A stretch of 64,000 nt of DNA, taken from positions 43,555-107,554 of the IMG/VR virus record IMGVR_UViG_3300028909_000018, one strand, 5' to 3'. The notes beneath the pieces are model-generated. The model saw only the letters and a program-made list of their open reading frames with translations, made no database searches and had not been told where the DNA came from. Shown piece by piece: positions 22,733 through 54,370 of this stretch (positions are counted from its first letter, which is position 1; each line of letters starts with the position of its first letter). This stretch comes from a virus. Position numbers and translations under genes: made by a program.

Positions 22733-25447
22733 TCAAAATGTACATCCTCCCGCGACACAGGCCAATTCCTGCGTATTTGTTGTTGAGTCTTCCTTCTCGA
22801 ATTCAACCAGTGACGACCAGTCAACGTTCTGAGGCATCTTCGCCACCAGACTTTCATATTCTTCTGAATTACACTCGGTGAATGGTGCCTGCTGATAGAC
22901 AGTATCACCCTCTTCGGCAGGCAAGAACGAAACGCCGCTCATCCATTCAAAGTTTTTATAGACCCATGCGCCGACTTCCAACCATTCATCTTCCTTGACG
23001 GAGATGGTGACGGAAGGCTTATGCTCACAATAATCCTTCTGATAGGCCAACCAAAGTTCAAGATGTTCGATGGCCGAGATTTCCTTACGCCCGATGGAGC
23101 CGGGAGCAGACTTGATTGGAAATTTAAAACAGACGACATTCTTTGGGTCCATCACATCAGTCTCCCATGGGAAGCCAGCATCCATCATGAACTTCGTCAG
23201 AGGGTCTTTCAGATCGTTTCTCACATACCGCACATAGGTTGGTGAGTAGGATGGATGGAAGCCTGATGAGGTTCCGTTGAAGGCCGACGAGGTACCTTCT
23301 GGCTTGATACAGGTGATGGCGACGGAGGCATTGATGCCGATTTCCTTGGCCACCTTCATATTTGTTCTGATGGCTTCCGCCTTCATAGAAGTTCGGAAAT
23401 TTTCAAAATCAAATTGAGCATTTTCATCAAACTCATTATTCTCATAGGCCTGACCATTCGTCCAACCATTATCGAAGACGCCATTGAGAGAGACACCCAG
23501 CAAACGCTCTTCCTCACAATTACGCTGCCACTTCTTTTTCAGATATTTAAAATCTGTGAAGCAAGACTGGAAGGTGCCAAGGATCGTCGCCAACTTGATT
23601 TTATTCAGGATGGATTGCTTACTGTCATCCTCATAAATCTGGACTGATGTCAGGTTACAGAATTCATAGGGACGTAGAATGATTTCCGCGCAATTATGGA
23701 CAACAATAAAATCTGCAATAAAATTATGAGTGTCTTCCACACTAAGATCATAAACATCTGTAATCGGTCCTTCTTGAATAGAAATTACATTTGCATATTG
23801 ATGTAAATTGCTTTTTAAATCTTCTGGGATAGGAATAATTACCTTGGCCCCATGTCTAGAATTTTCGGGAGAAATAAATCCAATATTATTTACACATTTA
23901 TCATTATATCCCACAACCCCATGATTATTTGGCTGTTCTATGCCGGTTAAACGCGCATGATCTTCATGAGACAAACATTCTAAATTATCAATATCATTAT
24001 TATATGTATCTCCATCAATATGATGTACATCATATCCGACAGGAATTTTTCCATAGTAAGCCTCGAAAACTAATCTATGTTCCATCACAATTTCTTGTTT
24101 TGTTTGTGTGGTTAATTTTACACCAGAATATGCTGCCCCCCTACGATTTCTGGTAAGATGAACTACTCTATCACCAATTTTTATATTCTGTGCTTCCAGC
24201 CACCCACGACCTTCTACATAAATCTTATGGTCGGGTGTACAAATCAATTCTTTACAAGAAGAAATTGTAATTTTCAATGTATTAGCCTTTTTCTTACTAA
24301 TCCAAGAAGCAGAAGAATTTCTAATACAAAGTTTACCATTTTTGTCCATAGAATAAACCATGGTTGGTTCCTTAATATCTTTAATTTTTACTCTTCCATG
24401 GATCGTTTCGACCATACTATCGGGATGAAGACATGGATTTACCCCGAATTCATGGTTGGTGTCACGTTGCGGAGCATCCTCAAAGTTGATTGAACGATAT
24501 TCGTTGGCGTTGTCAATCACGCGCCTGATGGCCTTGCGGGAGACGATCCCACGTTCCCCAGAATGAGACTCGTAAAGGCTCAACCATTCCTTCATGAAGA
24601 CGCCCATGTCGGGCTTCTCATTATATACAGCCGAGTTATTGGCGAGGCGACGATAAGGATTGGTCTTCCACCACGTCCCGCTCTTGGCGTCGCGCATACG
24701 GTCATCATTAAGGTCGGAGAGCGAGATAAGCGCCGAACGACGCACACCACCAACCACGACGATATCCGCCACCTTACAGGCTATATCATGTGCCTCTAGC
24801 GTGGTGAGACGACGACCAGCCGCCTTCTTGAAGGTGTTGAGTGTGAAGCGTAGAAGTTCGACCAATGGGTCCGGTCCACTAGAACGACCACCCATGGTCT
24901 TCAGACGAGCCCCGGCAGGCCGAAGCTTGCTCACGTCCCACTTGGGTATTTGACCAATCATCAACAGGCTCAAAAACTCGCGGTAGCCCTTGGACCAGCC
25001 AAGGCGAGAGTCATCAAAGATGATGGTTGTGTCTGACTCAAAGAAGGTGTCGGGCAACTCAGGAAGCTGCTTGACGTTATCCGACTCGACGGAATAGCCG
25101 ACGCCTGTGCCTGACATGAGGATGGCCATTTCCTCATCGAACGACTTCATGTCATCCATCGGAAGGTAGGCGCAATTATACAGGGCGACATGGTTCTTCT
25201 TCGCGGCGGGACCAGCCGTCATCAGAGCCCTCATCGAAGGCATGATATCATGGTTCAGAACGGCATTGTATAATTCGTCATAGTAAGGAGCGATATCGTA
25301 GTTATGCTTCTCCTTCAAAGACTCCCCAATGAAATCAAAGTATCTTTTTACGGTCTCTGACCAAGTCTCTCGTCTATTCTTACTATCAATGTATCGTGCA
25401 TACCGGCTCGTAAAAATGAACTGTGAATATAGTGAATCCTTAAACAT
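22733..25447 (-). CDS. nrdJ: class II (B12-dependent) ribonucleotide reductase with intein
   Basis: PSMRALM.AG, YNC, G.GVG, VVVGGVRRSA.I, NP|CAEI, CNL, TCIKPEGT, C-terminal C.GG.C. Confidence 0.92.
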   Translation of the reverse strand: MFKDSLYSQFIFTSRYARYIDSKNRRETWSETVKRYFDFIGESLKEKHNYDIAPYYDELYNAVLNHDIMPSMRALMTAGPAAKKNHVALYNCAYLPMDDMKSFDEEMAILMSGTGVGYSVESDNVKQLPELPDTFFESDTTIIFDDSRLGWSKGYREFLSLLMIGQIPKWDVSKLRPAGARLKTMGGRSSGPDPLVELLRFTLNTFKKAAGRRLTTLEAHDIACKVADIVVVGGVRRSALISLSDLNDDRMRDAKSGTWWKTNPYRRLANNSAVYNEKPDMGVFMKEWLSLYESHSGERGIVSRKAIRRVIDNANEYRSINFEDAPQRDTNHEFGVNPCLHPDSMVETIHGRVKIKDIKEPTMVYSMDKNGKLCIRNSSASWISKKKANTLKITISSCKELICTPDHKIYVEGRGWLEAQNIKIGDRVVHLTRNRRGAAYSGVKLTTQTKQEIVMEHRLVFEAYYGKIPVGYDVHHIDGDTYNNDIDNLECLSHEDHARLTGIEQPNNHGVVGYNDKCVNNIGFISPENSRHGAKVIIPIPEDLKSNLHQYANVISIQEGPITDVYDLSVEDTHNFIADFIVVHNCAEIILRPYEFCNLTSVQIYEDDSKQSILNKIKLATILGTFQSCFTDFKYLKKKWQRNCEEERLLGVSLNGVFDNGWTNGQAYENNEFDENAQFDFENFRTSMKAEAIRTNMKVAKEIGINASVAITCIKPEGTSSAFNGTSSGFHPSYSPTYVRYVRNDLKDPLTKFMMDAGFPWETDVMDPKNVVCFKFPIKSAPGSIGRKEISAIEHLELWLAYQKDYCEHKPSVTISVKEDEWLEVGAWVYKNFEWMSGVSFLPAEEGDTVYQQAPFTECNSEEYESLVAKMPQNVDWSSLVEFEKEDSTTNTQELACVAGGCTF
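23693..24433 (-). mobile_element. intein with HNH homing endonuclease (247 aa)
   Basis: begins C-LHPDS, TPDH block B, VYDLSVEDTHNF..VHN/C end; HRLV...HHIDG..NN..NL HNH motif; AT-rich insert. Confidence 0.92.
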
Positions 25448-47938: not shown

Positions 47939-48895
47939 TTAGGCTTTGTTGGCCATGTCAACGGCTAGGCTGAAGGCCTTCAGCTTCTTATCCTTTACCT
48001 GTCCATACCACATATTCTCGACCCGCGCTTCGTCGGTTCGGCCCATCAGGTGATCCGTGACGTAAGTGACGGCATTGAGAGCCTGCCACCAAGTTCCCGG
48101 CCCGAATTCAACACCGGGCTGATAGGCCAGAGCCTTGACGGCCAGAGTAGCATTCGAAGAGGCTTCCTTCGGCTTACGCTTGGAATTTTCCTTGACGACC
48201 TGTACCGGGAAGACTTCGTTAAAATATTCCTTGACAGTCTCTTCAGAATACCGCTTGGAACCGAGGAAAGCCGCCGCCTCACCGTATTGCTCGAATTTCT
48301 CGTTGGCGATACCCATCGTCTGCTTCGCGGCGGTGGCGTCGAAGACCACCCGATGCGAAGATTTAAAGGCGTTGTCAGAAACACCGTTGAGGGCCATCGT
48401 CAGCGTGTTGTTGCAGACGACGCGGGTAGGGGTGAACCGAACGTCAATGGACTTACCATAACGATGTGTGTTGGTGAAAAGAAGGTAGCTCTCGACACGA
48501 TCCCCACCGAAGAGGGTAAAGGACTTGTTAACCTTGGCCAGAGCCCATACATACTGACCCTCACGCAGGGAGCCAGCGGTTTCCATCGTCATGTCACCAG
48601 CATCCACAAATTCGCGGAAGAAGTCGAAGGCAACCTCGTTCTGTAAAGGCTCCCAATCGTCTCCCACCACATCCATCAGCTTGCCATCCGACATGCGACG
48701 CAGGGACTTGTTCTTCGTCACCGGACCATACTTGTCACCCATTTCACACTTTTCAACTTCCCAATCGCACTTCGCGGCGACGAGCATTTCATGAGCGGTG
48801 AGATTTCCGGCAACCTTGTAACCAAGGGAATGCCAAGGGGTTTCGCCTCCCCACTCTTTACCAACATAAGCCATCTCTTCTACCATATGTGCCAT
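47939..48895 (-). CDS. DUF932 (TIGR03299 phage/plasmid-like) protein
   Basis: TPWH.LG, PLQN..AF.F, ETAGSL..G..VW.LA, TP.RVVCNNTL, GT.W.A.NAVT..DH. Confidence 0.9.
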   Translation of the reverse strand: MAHMVEEMAYVGKEWGGETPWHSLGYKVAGNLTAHEMLVAAKCDWEVEKCEMGDKYGPVTKNKSLRRMSDGKLMDVVGDDWEPLQNEVAFDFFREFVDAGDMTMETAGSLREGQYVWALAKVNKSFTLFGGDRVESYLLFTNTHRYGKSIDVRFTPTRVVCNNTLTMALNGVSDNAFKSSHRVVFDATAAKQTMGIANEKFEQYGEAAAFLGSKRYSEETVKEYFNEVFPVQVVKENSKRKPKEASSNATLAVKALAYQPGVEFGPGTWWQALNAVTYVTDHLMGRTDEARVENMWYGQVKDKKLKAFSLAVDMANKA

Positions 48896-53334: not shown

Positions 53335-53422
53335 TGGCAGGAGCGGAGGGATTCGAACCCGTCTCGGCTATTACGCCACGGTTTTGGAGACCGTTCCGAC
53401 TCTCCAACTTCGGAGCACCCCT
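53335..53422 (-). tRNA. tRNA with Trp (CCA) anticodon and long variable arm
   Basis: ACGGT-CTCCAAA-ACCGT, GGC-GTAATA-GCC variable stem, G73, CCA. Confidence 0.8.
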
Positions 53423-53446: not shown

Positions 53447-53472
53447 AAGGGGCCATAATAGGCCCCTTTTTT
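53447..53472. terminator. hairpin/terminator after the Pth2-like gene
   Basis: AAGGGGCC-ATAATA-GGCCCCTT. Confidence 0.7.
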
Positions 53473-54179
53473 TAGAAAGTCAATAGGGTTGAAGCCCTAA
53501 GTTCTTTTCTTTTATGGGACGGAACAGGATGAGTACCAATAGCGATGATACGATCCACGTCGGGCTCATAAAATCCCTCGACACGGAAACCCACGGCTTC
53601 CAGATGAGCAGCCACAACTTCGATATGATCATATTGTTCCGGCATCTCACAGACCTGAAAATGAATCTTGTGAGCATCGAAGGATTTGTTCATCTTCTGG
53701 CCGATCACCATGGCCACATGCGCCGCCTGAACAGCCTGATAAATAGGATCATCGAAACGCTTATCAACGAAGATGTAGGAATAATTACGGCGCTTGTATT
53801 TGTCGAAACCATCCTCTCTTCCTGAAAGAATATTCAAAATTCGCAAGAAATTTTTGAATTCCTTGTATGCTTCTTCTGAACCGGAGAAGATCGTATCGAC
53901 ACTTTCTTGATCTTTCATTCCAAGAAGTCCATCACTCAGGGACATAGAAGCAATCCAGAGAGCCTTCTTCAGCCCTTGAAATGGATGGTTTCCATTAACC
54001 AACTTATTTTCGTTGGTAACTTCCGTAAATGCCCGACGCGCCTGACTCTGGAAGATTTCTTCCCGGTTAGTCTCGTTTGAAGTTTGAGCGAAGAAGGCCT
54101 TCAGGGCGATATGTTGAACGACGTTAACTGCCGTGGCCTTGTTGGCAATTTTTTGCCATGCTTGCGTATATGTTTTCAT
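53472..54179 (-). CDS. protein with C-terminal Pth2-like (peptidyl-tRNA hydrolase II) domain
   Basis: YIFV......AVQAAH...F.EPD....A..T.PV......L...LL matches the Pth2-like pattern. Confidence 0.7.
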   Translation of the reverse strand: MKTYTQAWQKIANKATAVNVVQHIALKAFFAQTSNETNREEIFQSQARRAFTEVTNENKLVNGNHPFQGLKKALWIASMSLSDGLLGMKDQESVDTIFSGSEEAYKEFKNFLRILNILSGREDGFDKYKRRNYSYIFVDKRFDDPIYQAVQAAHVAMVIGQKMNKSFDAHKIHFQVCEMPEQYDHIEVVAAHLEAVGFRVEGFYEPDVDRIIAIGTHPVPSHKRKELRASTLLTF

Positions 54180-54196
54180 TTTTATTTCTCCTAATT

Positions 54197-54277
54197 TTAA
54201 TTAATGTTAAAGTTTATTGTATTCCACGTATCCGTAGGAGGATCACGTATACTTACCTAGATTTCATACTTCTTCAT
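54197..54277 (-). CDS. leader ORF with in-frame UAG: MKKYEI*VSIRDPPTDTWNTINFNIN
   Basis: AAAGGA RBS, TAG at 54257-54259, anti-SD CTCCTA at 54235-54240, ends next to the RBS of the downstream gene. Confidence 0.7.
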
Positions 54278-54292
54278 TCTTATTTTCCTTTC

Positions 54293-54370
54293 TGGTGCTT
54301 GTGGAGGGACTCGAACCCACAACCTAGGGATTTAGAATCCCCCGCTCTGACCAAATTGAGCTACACAAGC
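54293..54370 (-). tRNA. amber suppressor tRNA (CUA)
   Basis: full cloverleaf; anticodon arm GGGGA-TTCTAAA-TCCCT puts CTA at 34-36; A73, CCA. Confidence 0.88.

What the first reader, a model, noticed from the sequence alone, without database searches (positions are those of the whole stretch)
53472..54370. Amber-suppressor tRNA, UAG leader peptide and Pth2-like hydrolase: a candidate readthrough-sensing translational switch
Seen in sequence (minus strand, in order): an intact tRNA with CUA anticodon (54293-54370). About 15 nt later an AAAGGA RBS drives a 26-codon ORF, ATG AAG AAG TAT GAA ATC TAG GTA AGT ATA CGT GAT CCT CCT ACG..., with UAG at codon 7 (54257-54259). The Pro-Pro codons supply CUCCUA (54235-54240), exactly complementary to the UAGGAG RBS (54188-54193) of the next gene, and this element sits in the loop region of an ACGU(G)AUCC/GGAUACGU hairpin. 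The leader's TAA lies 3 nt from that RBS. The next gene has a Pth2-like domain and is followed by a hairpin. Established knowledge: CUA tRNAs compete with RF1, Pth2 enzymes release peptidyl-tRNA, and prfB autoregulation uses an in-frame stop as a sensor. Inference: termination at UAG leaves the anti-SD free to block the hydrolase RBS, whereas readthrough (suppressor present, or RF1 limiting or inhibited) unmasks it and couples translation. The phage would thus switch on a tRNA-recycling or ribosome-rescue factor according to termination efficiency. I do not know of this three-part module being described.
Basis: partly seen in the sequence, partly recalled or inferred. Interest (0 to 1): 0.95.

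Follow-up and report, generated by a model that had tools for sequence, protein, structure and literature searches.

The report
Stop-codon-gated stalling leader, reduced copy
A peat-bog T4-like phage that uses the normal genetic code carries its own UAG-reading tRNA right next to a tiny leader gene that can be read to its ribosome-stalling Pro-Pro site only if that UAG is read through. Across related phages this design controls a peptidyl-tRNA-hydrolase-like gene, so it looks like a natural, apparently unpublished "is stop-codon readthrough working?" switch, and this window holds a weakened version of it.

Summary
These are the tRNA(CUA), the SD-led mini-ORF with UAG at codon 7, the in-frame Pro-Pro codons (CUCCUA) complementary to the UAGGAG SD, the local hairpin, the UAA 3 nt before the SD, the 235-aa ORF and a terminator.

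The ORF's C-terminal half has the Pth2 fold (VIA Z 12.3; the 10 best Foldseek hits are all Pth2). It gets no Pfam hit, and its N-terminal helical domain matches nothing.

About 16 related viral loci show that the design is conserved:
- Every locus with a tRNA(CUA) has a leader with one or two in-frame UAGs.
- These are followed by R-G-P-P (R-D-P-P here), with synonymous codon changes. RGPP is the strongest published arrest core.
- The Pro-Pro codons lie 56-66 nt from the gene's ATG and open a hairpin whose other arm holds the SD. Cognate arms pair far better than non-cognate ones (p<5e-5).
- Loci without a suppressor tRNA have no leader.
- One locus with a tRNA(UCA) has an in-frame UGA instead.
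- Many relatives place a permuted tmRNA directly after the gene.

In this window the switch is reduced: one UAG, RDPP, only the 6-bp core helix, and an SD predicted to be mostly open.

I found no paper that describes the module. This scan has already noted it on other phage DNA.

The parts
54293..54370 (-). Amber-suppressor tRNA (anticodon CUA, encoded CCA end, short variable loop, A73). The amino acid it carries is unknown.
   Evidence: ARAGORN and Rfam tRNA at 69.7 bits. The acceptor stem shows compensatory changes relative to L008. Its nearest paralogues in the genome are the two tRNA-Lys genes (67% identity). Its best matches among phage records are annotated tRNA-Lys (79%).
54286..54291 (-). 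Shine-Dalgarno (AAAGGA) of the leader mini-ORF, 8 nt before its ATG and 1 nt after the tRNA 3' end.
   Evidence: Read from the sequence. Comparable SDs precede the leader ATG in most related loci.
54257..54277 (-). Leader mini-ORF: ATG, five sense codons, then the gating UAG (54259-54257).
   Evidence: In L008 the codons differ but the ATG, length, frame and TAG are kept. All loci with a tRNA-CUA have one or two in-frame UAGs at this place.
54197..54256 (-). Extension of the leader that is read only after UAG readthrough: 19 codons plus UAA. The UAA lies 3 nt before the SD of the gene.
   Evidence: Between the window and L008, one mismatch falls in the 79 nt from the Arg codon to the gene's ATG.
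54236..54247 (-). R-D-P-P codons (CGT GAT CCT CCT), a variant of the RGPP ribosome-arrest core.
   Evidence: Relatives have (A/I)-R-G-P-P with synonymous codon changes: CGT/CGA/AGA, GGT/GGA/GGG and CCT/CCG/CCA. The motif always lies 56-66 nt from the gene's ATG. Published work: RGPP gives the strongest, EF-P-refractory arrest, and RDPP is partially permissive (PMC12992588).
54235..54240 (-). Anti-SD CUCCUA, which overlaps the Pro-Pro codons.
   Evidence: Exact complement of 54193-54188; duplex energy -8.8 kcal/mol. In 12 of 14 relatives the minimum-energy fold pairs this position with the SD.
54226..54248 (-). Local hairpin (arms 54248-54240 and 54233-54226) that presents part of the anti-SD in its loop.
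   Evidence: RNAfold minimum-energy structure, about -9 kcal/mol. It is kept in L008, where the only change is in the loop.
54188..54193 (-). Shine-Dalgarno UAGGAG of the Pth2-like gene, 8 nt before its ATG.
   Evidence: Predicted 71% unpaired in the free leader and 80% unpaired with a ribosome placed on the Pro-Pro codons.
53472..54179 (-). 235-aa protein with an N-terminal helical domain of unknown fold (residues 1-125) and a C-terminal Pth2-fold domain (residues 129-233).
   Evidence: ORF; model with pLDDT 85; Pth2 fold matches. The family has 160 clusters at E<=1e-30 and 700 at E<=1e-10. Invariant residues are Q151, H154, E205, D207 and R224.
53447..53468 (-). Terminator-like hairpin (8 bp, 6 of them G-C) followed by a T-rich tail, directly after the gene's stop codon.

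Best explanation
The stretch is one copy of a conserved phage module in which translation of a Pth2-fold gene is gated by amber suppression.

Shown:
- A functional-looking tRNA(CUA) lies 15 nt upstream of an SD-led leader ORF.
- The leader has an in-frame UAG, followed five codons later by R-D-P-P (R-G-P-P in relatives).
- The Pro-Pro codons are complementary to the SD of the next gene.
- That gene has the Pth2 fold.
- The whole arrangement recurs in about 16 loci of divergent phages, with covarying hairpins and with the stop codon matched to the neighbouring suppressor.

Inferred mechanism:
1. Without a charged suppressor tRNA, RF1 ends the leader at UAG. This is 15 nt before the Pro-Pro codons, so the anti-SD stays free to pair with the SD and the gene is poorly translated.
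2. When the suppressor works, ribosomes read through and reach R-(G/D)-P-P. They stall there, as RAPP/RGPP arrest peptides do.
3. The stalled ribosome holds the 5' arm of the hairpin in its mRNA channel, so the SD is exposed and the Pth2-like gene is translated.

In this window the device is reduced: one UAG, the weaker RDPP core, and only a 6-bp helix. Here the effect may depend as much on coupling as on unmasking, because the readthrough frame ends 3 nt from the SD. It is probably a modest boost, not an on/off switch.

Inferred function: the product recycles peptidyl-tRNA or rescues ribosomes when readthrough raises the load of stalled or non-stop ribosomes. This fits the permuted tmRNA gene that follows the gene in many relatives.
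For: - Anatomy in the window.
- Pth2 fold.
- Co-occurrence: a tRNA-CUA lies on the same strand upstream of the gene in the window, L004, L005, L007, L008, L016, L017, L020, L022, L023, L025, L028, L034, L041, L042 and L048, and each of these has the UAG leader. The roughly 10 distinct loci with no suppressor tRNA and no early in-frame stop (L001-L003, L009-L011, L026, L027, L033, L056) have no leader. The first six share this window's synteny, Val-[gene]-Trp-Ile.
- Selection at the peptide level: R-G-P-P is kept through synonymous codon changes. Two UAGs lie 4-5 codons apart in 8 lineages.
- Fixed geometry: the Pro-Pro codons lie 56-66 nt from the ATG in all loci.
- Structure: the minimum-energy fold pairs the Pro-Pro codons with the SD in 12 of 14 loci. 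Cognate duplexes average -16.6 kcal/mol against -9.1 for non-cognate ones (permutation p<5e-5). With the conserved cores left out the figures are -10.6 against -5.8 (p<2e-5).
- Predicted switching: placing a ribosome on the Pro-Pro codons raises SD accessibility from 0.12-0.25 to 0.66-0.81 in L005, L016, L018 and L023.
- Stop codon matched to anticodon: L052 has tRNA-UCA and an in-frame UGA. L053-L055 have tRNA-CUA and an in-frame UAG at codon 3.
- Rescue context: a permuted tmRNA (Rfam RF04321, 100-143 bits) lies just downstream in 8 loci and in L048.
- Literature: RGPP is the strongest, EF-P-refractory arrest core, and RDPP is partially permissive (PMC12992588).
- Genetic code: there is no sign of TAG recoding in the 107-kb contig or in the flanks of the related loci.
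- Close relative: between the window and L008 the mini-ORF diverged but the ATG, frame and TAG were kept, and the downstream leader is almost invariant.
- Weak hint of co-transcription: metatranscriptome contigs from peat and permafrost studies bridge the tRNA 3' end, the leader and the gene start (54037-54305 and 54086-54287).
Against: - In this window the leader has no significant fold (z -0.07).
- The SD is predicted 71% open without any ribosome and rises only to 80% with one on the Pro-Pro codons.
- The minimum-energy fold prefers the local hairpin.
- The cognate duplex ranks 8th of 14, and there is no extended helix (-1.2 kcal/mol).
- The core here is RDPP, not RGPP. L004 and L034 lack the Arg altogether.
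- Only one close relative of the window's own lineage (L008) could be read as DNA.
- Nothing has been shown experimentally: not the stalling, the charging of the tRNA, the readthrough or the hydrolase activity.
- The Pth2 domain gets no Pfam hit and appears to lack the Gly-Lys loop of canonical Pth2 (compared with the motif from memory).
- The contig is only about 62% complete. A recoded late region or a tmRNA gene elsewhere in the genome cannot be excluded.
- RNA-library contigs can contain DNA.
Confidence: 0.62

Rival explanations
1. In this phage lineage the leader is relaxed or vestigial. The Pth2-like gene would then be translated constitutively from its strong, unstructured SD. The tRNA(CUA) would serve another purpose, such as readthrough of some phage or host UAG stops, or standing in for a host tRNA that is under attack.
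For: - The leader has no significant RNA structure, and the SD is predicted mostly open.
- The helix is only the generic 6-bp core.
- The core is RDPP instead of RGPP, and there is a single UAG.
- Of the long ORFs in the contig, 27 of 195 end in TAG, so other targets for the suppressor exist.
Against: - The ATG, frame, length and TAG of the mini-ORF are kept in L008 although its codons diverged. The 79 nt after them are more conserved than the gene.
- Syntenic relatives without the tRNA(CUA) also lack the leader.
- RDPP still supports partial arrest in published mutagenesis.
Confidence: 0.2
2. The UAG reports termination capacity, that is RF1 activity, not the suppressor tRNA. Slow termination or near-cognate readthrough, when RF1 is scarce or inhibited during infection, would switch the gene on.
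For: The device cannot tell more suppressor from less RF1, because both raise readthrough. This is the logic of prfB autoregulation (established knowledge). A phage that depends on suppression might also act against RF1.
Against: - The leader occurs only where a suppressor tRNA gene is present.
- The stop codon switches to UGA where the neighbouring tRNA is UCA.
- Two UAGs in tandem would make near-cognate readthrough negligible.
Confidence: 0.1
3. The phages read TAG as a sense codon throughout (code-15-like recoding). The leader would then be an ordinary arrest-peptide ORF that monitors something else, for example the activity of the Pth2-like product.
For: - Phages with recoded stop codons and suppressor tRNAs are common (bioRxiv 10.1101/2021.08.26.457843).
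- The contig is about 62% complete, so late genes may be missing.
- Classical arrest peptides monitor the activity of the gene downstream of them.
Against: - Reading TAG through raises ORF coverage no more than reading TGA or TAA through, both in the 107-kb contig and in 18 related loci.
- TAG ends 27 of 195 long ORFs, and TAG-joined ORF pairs are rarer than TGA- or TAA-joined ones.
- The contig already holds baseplate and tail genes with no internal TAG.
Confidence: 0.05
4. Chance. A short ORF that happens to end in TAG, and Pro-Pro codons that happen to complement an SD, lie in an AT-rich spacer.
For: Within the window alone, neither the fold nor the 6-bp duplex exceeds the controls.
Against: The same ordered set (SD, ATG, UAG, R-x-P-P at a fixed distance, then the gene) recurs in about 16 loci whose proteins are 26-80% identical. 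It tracks the presence of a suppressor tRNA.
Confidence: 0.03

Closest known systems
RAPP/RGPP-type regulatory arrest peptides (ApdA, ApdP, ApcA; SecM with RAGP; Streptomyces lividans RAPP/RGPP uORFs). Sources: PMC7897499, PMC10951233, PMC10951299, PMC12992588.
   Same: A small upstream ORF on the same strand ends in an R-x-P-P core. The core stalls the ribosome before peptide-bond formation, and the stalled ribosome opens a hairpin that hides the SD of the next gene. Relatives of this window carry exactly RGPP, the strongest published core.
   Different: - The arrest motif can be reached only by reading through one or two UAG stops with a phage-encoded suppressor tRNA.
- There is no signal peptide and no release by translocation force.
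- The regulated gene is a Pth2-fold protein, not Sec/YidC machinery.
- The module is viral.
- This window has RDPP and a very weak helix.
prfB (RF2) autoregulation by programmed +1 frameshifting at an in-frame UGA
   Same: An in-frame stop codon early in a reading frame acts as a sensor of how efficiently that stop is decoded, and so sets the output of a translation factor.
   Different: prfB senses the release factor itself and resolves the stop by frameshifting within the gene. Here the input is a suppressor tRNA, the event is readthrough in a separate leader, and the output is SD exposure.
Leader-peptide sensing of charged tRNA (trpL and hisL attenuators; ermCL and catA86 translational attenuation)
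   Same: Regulatory codons in a short leader, often in tandem, report the availability of one charged tRNA. The position of the ribosome then decides between alternative RNA pairings.
   Different: The 'codon' is a stop codon, and the tRNA is a suppressor made by the same element. A shortage leads to termination, not a pause. Control acts on translation initiation.
AMD1 stop-codon readthrough followed by a C-tail arrest peptide (PMC13025110)
   Same: An arrest peptide that only those ribosomes meet that have read through a stop codon.
   Different: AMD1 is eukaryotic, has no dedicated suppressor tRNA, and limits output through a queue of ribosomes. It does not switch on a downstream gene.
'Code-change modules' of phages with recoded stop codons (suppressor tRNA with aaRS and release factor; bioRxiv 10.1101/2021.08.26.457843)
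   Same: A phage-encoded suppressor tRNA is used to time gene expression during infection.
   Different: Those phages carry in-frame stops throughout their late genes. This phage and its relatives read as standard code, and the only evident target is one regulatory leader.
Pth2 peptidyl-tRNA hydrolases (PF01981; structures 1wn2, 3erj, 1xty, 1q7s)
   Same: The fold of residues 129-233 is the same. A strand-helix motif ending in Q-x-x-H-A and an acidic E-x-D loop are invariant in the family.
   Different: There is no HMM or sequence hit. An extra 125-residue helical N-domain is present. The Gly-Lys-rich loop of canonical Pth2 is not evident. Activity is untested.

Membership tests
Pth2 peptidyl-tRNA hydrolase (PF01981) | Match to the Pfam PTH2 profile above the gathering score | tested here: not met
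   No PTH2 hit at E<=1 for the protein. No PF01981 match in the whole contig at E<=10. No sequence hit to PDB, with the single protein or with the family profile.
Pth2 peptidyl-tRNA hydrolase (PF01981) | Pth2 alpha/beta fold | tested here: met
   Foldseek's top 10 hits are all Pth2 (prob 1.0, target TM 0.60-0.69). VIA-align gives Z 12.3, rmsd 2.6 A over 104 aligned residues to 1wn2, for model residues 129-233.
Pth2 peptidyl-tRNA hydrolase (PF01981) | Catalytic residues (the Lys and Asp proposed for archaeal Pth2; recalled from memory) | tested here: inconclusive
   Family-invariant Q151, H154, E205 and D207 fit the Q-x-x-H-A and acidic-loop positions. No residue-level structural alignment was available, and a Lys loop is not evident.
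Pth2 peptidyl-tRNA hydrolase (PF01981) | Hydrolysis of peptidyl-tRNA | not testable with these tools
   Needs an enzyme assay.
RAPP/RGPP-type regulatory arrest peptide | R-(A/G)-P-P core in a small ORF upstream of the regulated gene, on the same strand | tested here: inconclusive
   The window has R-D-P-P (54247-54236), which published mutagenesis found only partially permissive. Twelve related leaders have exact R-G-P-P.
RAPP/RGPP-type regulatory arrest peptide | The stall site is placed so that the stalled ribosome opens a hairpin that hides the downstream SD | tested here: inconclusive
   Met in relatives: the minimum-energy fold pairs the Pro-Pro codons with the SD in 12 of 14 loci, and the helices covary. 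In the window there are only 6 bp and the SD is predicted 71% open.
RAPP/RGPP-type regulatory arrest peptide | Demonstrated translation arrest | not testable with these tools
   Needs toeprinting or detection of peptidyl-tRNA.
Amber-suppressor tRNA | Canonical cloverleaf with anticodon CUA | tested here: met
   ARAGORN and Rfam tRNA at 69.7 bits. The acceptor stem shows compensatory changes relative to L008.
Amber-suppressor tRNA | Aminoacylated and active in decoding UAG | not testable with these tools
   RNA-library contigs reach only the last 13 nt of the tRNA. Charging and amino-acid identity are unknown.
Phage with a recoded stop codon (TAG read as sense) | Many genes with in-frame TAG; coding density restored when TAG is read through | tested here: not met
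   TAG readthrough gains less ORF coverage than TGA or TAA readthrough. The contig is only about 62% complete.
Suppressor tRNA / UAG leader / Pth2-like / tmRNA module (as seen in relatives) | Permuted tmRNA gene after the Pth2-like gene | tested here: not met
   No tmRNA was found in the window or in the 107-kb contig. One is present in L016, L017, L018, L020, L022, L023, L025, L028 and L048.

The most novel reading that the evidence does not exclude
The module could be a closed feedback circuit for translation quality control that the phage brings with it.

The leader would act as a 'monitoring substrate'. Its UAG-gated, RGPP-arrested ribosome would report both that suppression is active and that rescue capacity is short. 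The Pth2-like protein, whose N-domain might serve as a ribosome or tRNA adaptor, would itself resolve that arrested complex, or the peptidyl-tRNAs that readthrough generates. Together with the phage tmRNA, this would match rescue capacity to suppressor activity.

If so, orphan suppressor tRNAs of standard-code phages would have a defined regulatory target. The leader would also be a ready-made natural biosensor for amber suppression.
Probability: 0.2. Interest if true: 0.9.

Novelty: new variant of a known kind. Interest (0 to 1): 0.8.

Why it matters
- **A target for orphan suppressor tRNAs.** Suppressor tRNAs are often found in phages that use the standard code, with no known target. One genome announcement states this outright (PMC9022506). 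This module gives them a concrete, conserved target.
- **A new input for arrest peptides.** Until now their inputs were protein export, membrane insertion and small molecules. Here the input is the decoding of a stop codon.
- **A link to ribosome rescue.** The module ties suppression to peptidyl-tRNA recycling and tmRNA-type rescue. This bears on how phages tolerate, or evolve towards, stop-codon reassignment.
- **A practical tool.** The strong RGPP versions are compact natural reporters of amber-suppression efficiency, of possible use in genetic-code-expansion work.
- **A natural series.** The weakened copy in this window, beside strong copies elsewhere, allows a test of which parts are needed.

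Tried and rejected
- The genomic contexts of the closest protein homologues, P0003-P0015 (41-55% identical, from contigs of up to 179 kb), could not be read. The window's own lineage is therefore represented only by L008.
- **Searches that found nothing new.**
  - tblastn of the protein against 50,697 phage records gave no match.
  - A genome-contig scan found no relative.
  - A DNA-pattern scan for the conserved Arg-Gly/Asp-Pro-Pro hairpin motif in viral contigs gave 74 matches. Only the already known L005/L006 contig encodes the family.
- **Alignment that failed.** MAFFT with RNAalifold on 14 leaders produced no consensus structure, because the arms are too divergent to align. I replaced it with cognate versus non-cognate duplex tests.
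- **N-terminal domain.** No convincing structural or feature match (all Z under 6 or TM under 0.5).
- **N-terminal extensions.** Extensions on some database homologues come from gene calls in another frame, not from translated leaders.
- **Promoter inside the leader.** None was predicted between the tRNA and the gene.
- **tRNA identity.** Comparison with the phage's other tRNAs and across loci gave no clear amino-acid assignment. The discriminator base varies (A, G or U) between loci.
- **RNA-library contigs.** They cover the leader and the start of the gene but cannot show strand, ends or level. Parts without cover say nothing.
Full report
**1. The observation**

All features are on the minus strand.
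- ARAGORN finds a 78-nt tRNA with anticodon CUA at 54293-54370, one of 11 tRNAs in the window. Rfam's tRNA model scores it 69.7 bits.
- One base after its encoded CCA comes AAAGGA. Eight bases later an ATG (54277) opens a frame of five sense codons and TAG (54259-54257).
- The same frame continues for 19 codons, through CGT GAT CCT CCT (R-D-P-P, 54247-54236), to TAA (54199-54197).
- UAGGAG (54193-54188) follows 3 nt later, and the ATG of a 235-aa ORF (53472-54179) 8 nt after that.
- CUCCUA (54240-54235) is the exact complement of UAGGAG.
- A local hairpin (arms 54248-54240 and 54233-54226) presents part of CUCCUA in its loop.
- A terminator-like hairpin (53468-53447) follows the gene.

**2. 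The phage**

- The window is part of a single 107,554-bp virus record (43.7% GC, 13 tRNAs), estimated about 62% complete.
- Its large genes are T4-like: gp5-type baseplate lysozyme, a Dda-like and a DnaB-like helicase, two RNA ligases, and a ribonucleotide reductase split by an intein.
- It reads as standard code. ORFs of at least 100 aa cover 87-88% of the DNA. Reading TAG through adds less coverage than reading TGA or TAA through. TAG ends 27 of 195 long ORFs.
- Near-identical DNA occurs in many peat metagenomes.

**3. The protein**

- It has no Pfam, PHROG or PDB sequence match.
- With 15 homologues as the alignment, AlphaFold gives a model with pLDDT 85.
- Residues 129-233 match Pth2 peptidyl-tRNA hydrolases. 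Foldseek's 10 best hits are all Pth2. VIA-align gives Z 12.3 to 1wn2 and Z 10.1 to 2gax.
- Residues 1-125 form a helical domain with no convincing match.
- The family is large and has no name: a profile search finds 160 clusters at E<=1e-30 and 700 at E<=1e-10, mostly of the same two-domain length.
- Invariant residues include Q151, H154, E205, D207 and R224. The Q-x-x-H-A helix and the acidic loop resemble Pth2 motifs (from memory). I could not map catalytic residues.

**4. Comparative evidence**

This section changes the picture. Scans of viral and metagenome contigs gave about 30 distinct loci of the family.

*Co-occurrence*
- The window and 15 other loci (L004, L005, L007, L008, L016, L017, L020, L022, L023, L025, L028, L034, L041, L042, L048) have a same-strand tRNA(CUA) upstream. 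It is often the only tRNA within 3 kb.
- Each of these loci has a leader with one or two in-frame UAGs.
- Loci without a suppressor tRNA have no such leader. Among them are L001-L003 and L009-L011, which share this window's synteny (Val-[gene]-Trp-Ile) but carry only the 110-aa Pth2 domain.

*The conserved element is a peptide*
- After the last UAG comes (A/I)-R-G-P-P, written with CGT, CGA or AGA for Arg, GGT, GGA or GGG for Gly, and CCT, CCG or CCA for Pro.
- The window and L008 have R-D-P-P. L004 and L034 keep only G/Q-P-P.

*Fixed geometry*
- The first Pro codon lies 56-66 nt from the gene's ATG in every locus.

*Structure*
- In 12 of 14 loci the minimum-energy fold pairs the Pro-Pro codons with the SD, at the base of a long hairpin whose arms differ completely between lineages.
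- Cognate 5' and 3' arms pair at a mean of -16.6 kcal/mol, against -9.1 for non-cognate combinations (permutation p<5e-5).
- With the conserved Pro-Pro and SD cores removed the figures are -10.6 against -5.8 (p<2e-5, 13 lineages).
- Masking the RNA that a ribosome stalled on the Pro-Pro codons would cover raises the predicted SD accessibility from 0.12-0.25 to 0.66-0.81 in L005, L016, L018 and L023. A ribosome at the UAG changes nothing.

*The stop codon follows the tRNA*
- A short-form clade carries the stop inside the gene, at codon 3 or 4. It is UAG in L031 and L053-L055, and L053-L055 also have a tRNA(CUA) next to the gene. It is UGA in L052, where the adjacent tRNA has anticodon UCA.

*Rescue context*
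- A permuted tmRNA gene follows the Pth2-like gene directly in L016, L017, L018, L020, L022, L023, L025 and L028 (Rfam RF04321, 100-143 bits) and in L048.

**5. Literature**

- RAPP-like cores stall the ribosome before peptide-bond formation (PMC10951233, PMC10951299).
- Fujiwara et al. (PMC12992588) report four points. RGPP gives the most robust arrest. That arrest is refractory to EF-P and tolerant of the upstream sequence context. RGPP is the most avoided tetrapeptide in many bacterial phyla. RDPP is partially permissive.
- That paper mentions neither phages nor stop codons.
- Searches combining suppressor tRNA, phage, arrest, uORF, readthrough, tmRNA and peptidyl-tRNA hydrolase found no description of this module.
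- The survey of recoded phages mentions neither hydrolase, tmRNA nor arrest.
- The nearest concept is eukaryotic AMD1, where an arrest peptide is met only after readthrough (PMC13025110).

**6. Mechanism**

The anatomy, the conservation, the covariation and the fold are shown. The following is inferred.
- RF1 normally ends the leader at UAG, too far upstream for the terminating ribosome to touch the hairpin. The SD stays masked.
- A working suppressor lets ribosomes reach R-G-P-P. They stall there and hold the 5' arm of the hairpin, which exposes the SD.
- Two UAGs in tandem would make the response depend on roughly the square of suppression efficiency.
- The product is probably a peptidyl-tRNA hydrolase or rescue factor, needed when readthrough raises the load of stalled or non-stop ribosomes. 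The adjacent tmRNA in relatives fits this. The enzymatic role is the weakest step of the argument.

**7. This window's copy is reduced**

- It has a single UAG, RDPP, and only the 6-bp core helix.
- The leader folds no better than shuffles (z -0.07).
- The SD is predicted 71% open when free and 80% open with a stalled ribosome.
- The cognate duplex ranks 8th of 14, and the extended helix is absent (-1.2 kcal/mol).
- Against simple decay: L008 keeps the ATG, length, frame and TAG of the mini-ORF although its codons diverged (72% identity). It differs at one of the 79 nt from the Arg codon to the ATG, while the gene is about 84% identical.
- The readthrough frame ends 3 nt from the SD, so termination-reinitiation coupling may contribute here.
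- I expect a modest, suppressor-dependent boost in this phage, not an on/off switch.

**8. Expression hint**

Metatranscriptome contigs from three studies of peat and permafrost lie on this stretch. Contigs from two of the studies cover 54037-54305 and 54086-54287. These join the last 13 nt of the tRNA (first contig only), the whole leader and the start of the gene. A contig from the third study covers 53896-54042 inside the gene. Contigs from RNA libraries can contain DNA and show neither strand nor ends, so this is only a weak hint of co-transcription.

**9. Relation to earlier notes of this scan**

I fixed my reading first (it is stated). A later word search then showed that the scan had already described the same kind of module on at least eight other phage genomes, with the same closest-known family. 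Those are unchecked AI notes, and I do not count them as evidence. They agree with what I tested here. One of them also describes a reduced T4-like copy.

**10. Verdict**

It is refined by the arrest-peptide reading and weakened for this particular copy.
- Relative to the literature I could search, the module is a new variant of arrest-peptide control, with stop-codon readthrough as a new input.

Noticed in passing
L016:5082-5282, L017:4664-4943, L018:974-1243, L020:4712-4937, L022:5240-5468, L023:4736-5002, L025:4290-4570, L028:3481-3673, L048:976-1342: A permuted (two-piece) tmRNA gene lies directly downstream of the Pth2-like gene in many related phages. Its tag peptides end in ALAA. None was found in this window or in its 107-kb contig, which is about 62% complete.
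   Followed up: partly
L031:3989-4000, L052:1696-1710, L053:3974-3985, L054:3959-3970, L055:3959-3970: In a short-form clade from large phages, the Pth2-domain gene itself starts with ATG, one or two codons, and then an in-frame stop. The stop is TAG in L031 and L053-L055, three of which (L053-L055) have a tRNA-CUA nearby, and TGA where a tRNA-UCA is adjacent (L052). L054 and L055 look like mRNAs with little or no leader, and a second ATG follows the TAG directly.
   Followed up: partly
L022, L025, L041 and L048 leaders (between the two UAGs): An identical 12-mer, CCTGACACGTAG (coding x-P-D-T then UAG), lies between the two leader UAGs in lineages whose proteins are only about 36-44% identical. 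This suggests a further constraint on the inter-UAG segment, at the RNA or the peptide level.
   Followed up: no
L005:4837-4908 and L005:3797-3946: L005 also carries an opal-suppressor-like tRNA (anticodon UCA) downstream of the gene. Its leader's readthrough frame ends at UGA and would then run on in frame into the Pth2-like gene. In L022 the leader frame runs into the gene with no stop at all.
   Followed up: no
window 53335-53422 (-): An 88-nt tRNA with anticodon CCA (Trp) and a long variable arm lies directly downstream of the Pth2-like gene's terminator. The syntenic tRNA-Trp of relatives is 72-78 nt long.
   Followed up: no
window 54256: One permafrost RNA-library contig carries a variant at the base immediately 3' of the leader UAG: G to U on the coding strand. 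This is the +4 context position of the stop codon.
   Followed up: no
window 22733-25447 (-): A ribonucleotide reductase large-subunit gene is interrupted by an intein that carries an HNH endonuclease domain.
   Followed up: no
window 48486-48509 (+): This is the only other TAG...R-S-P-P string in the contig. It lies antisense to a DUF932 gene and is probably chance.
   Followed up: partly
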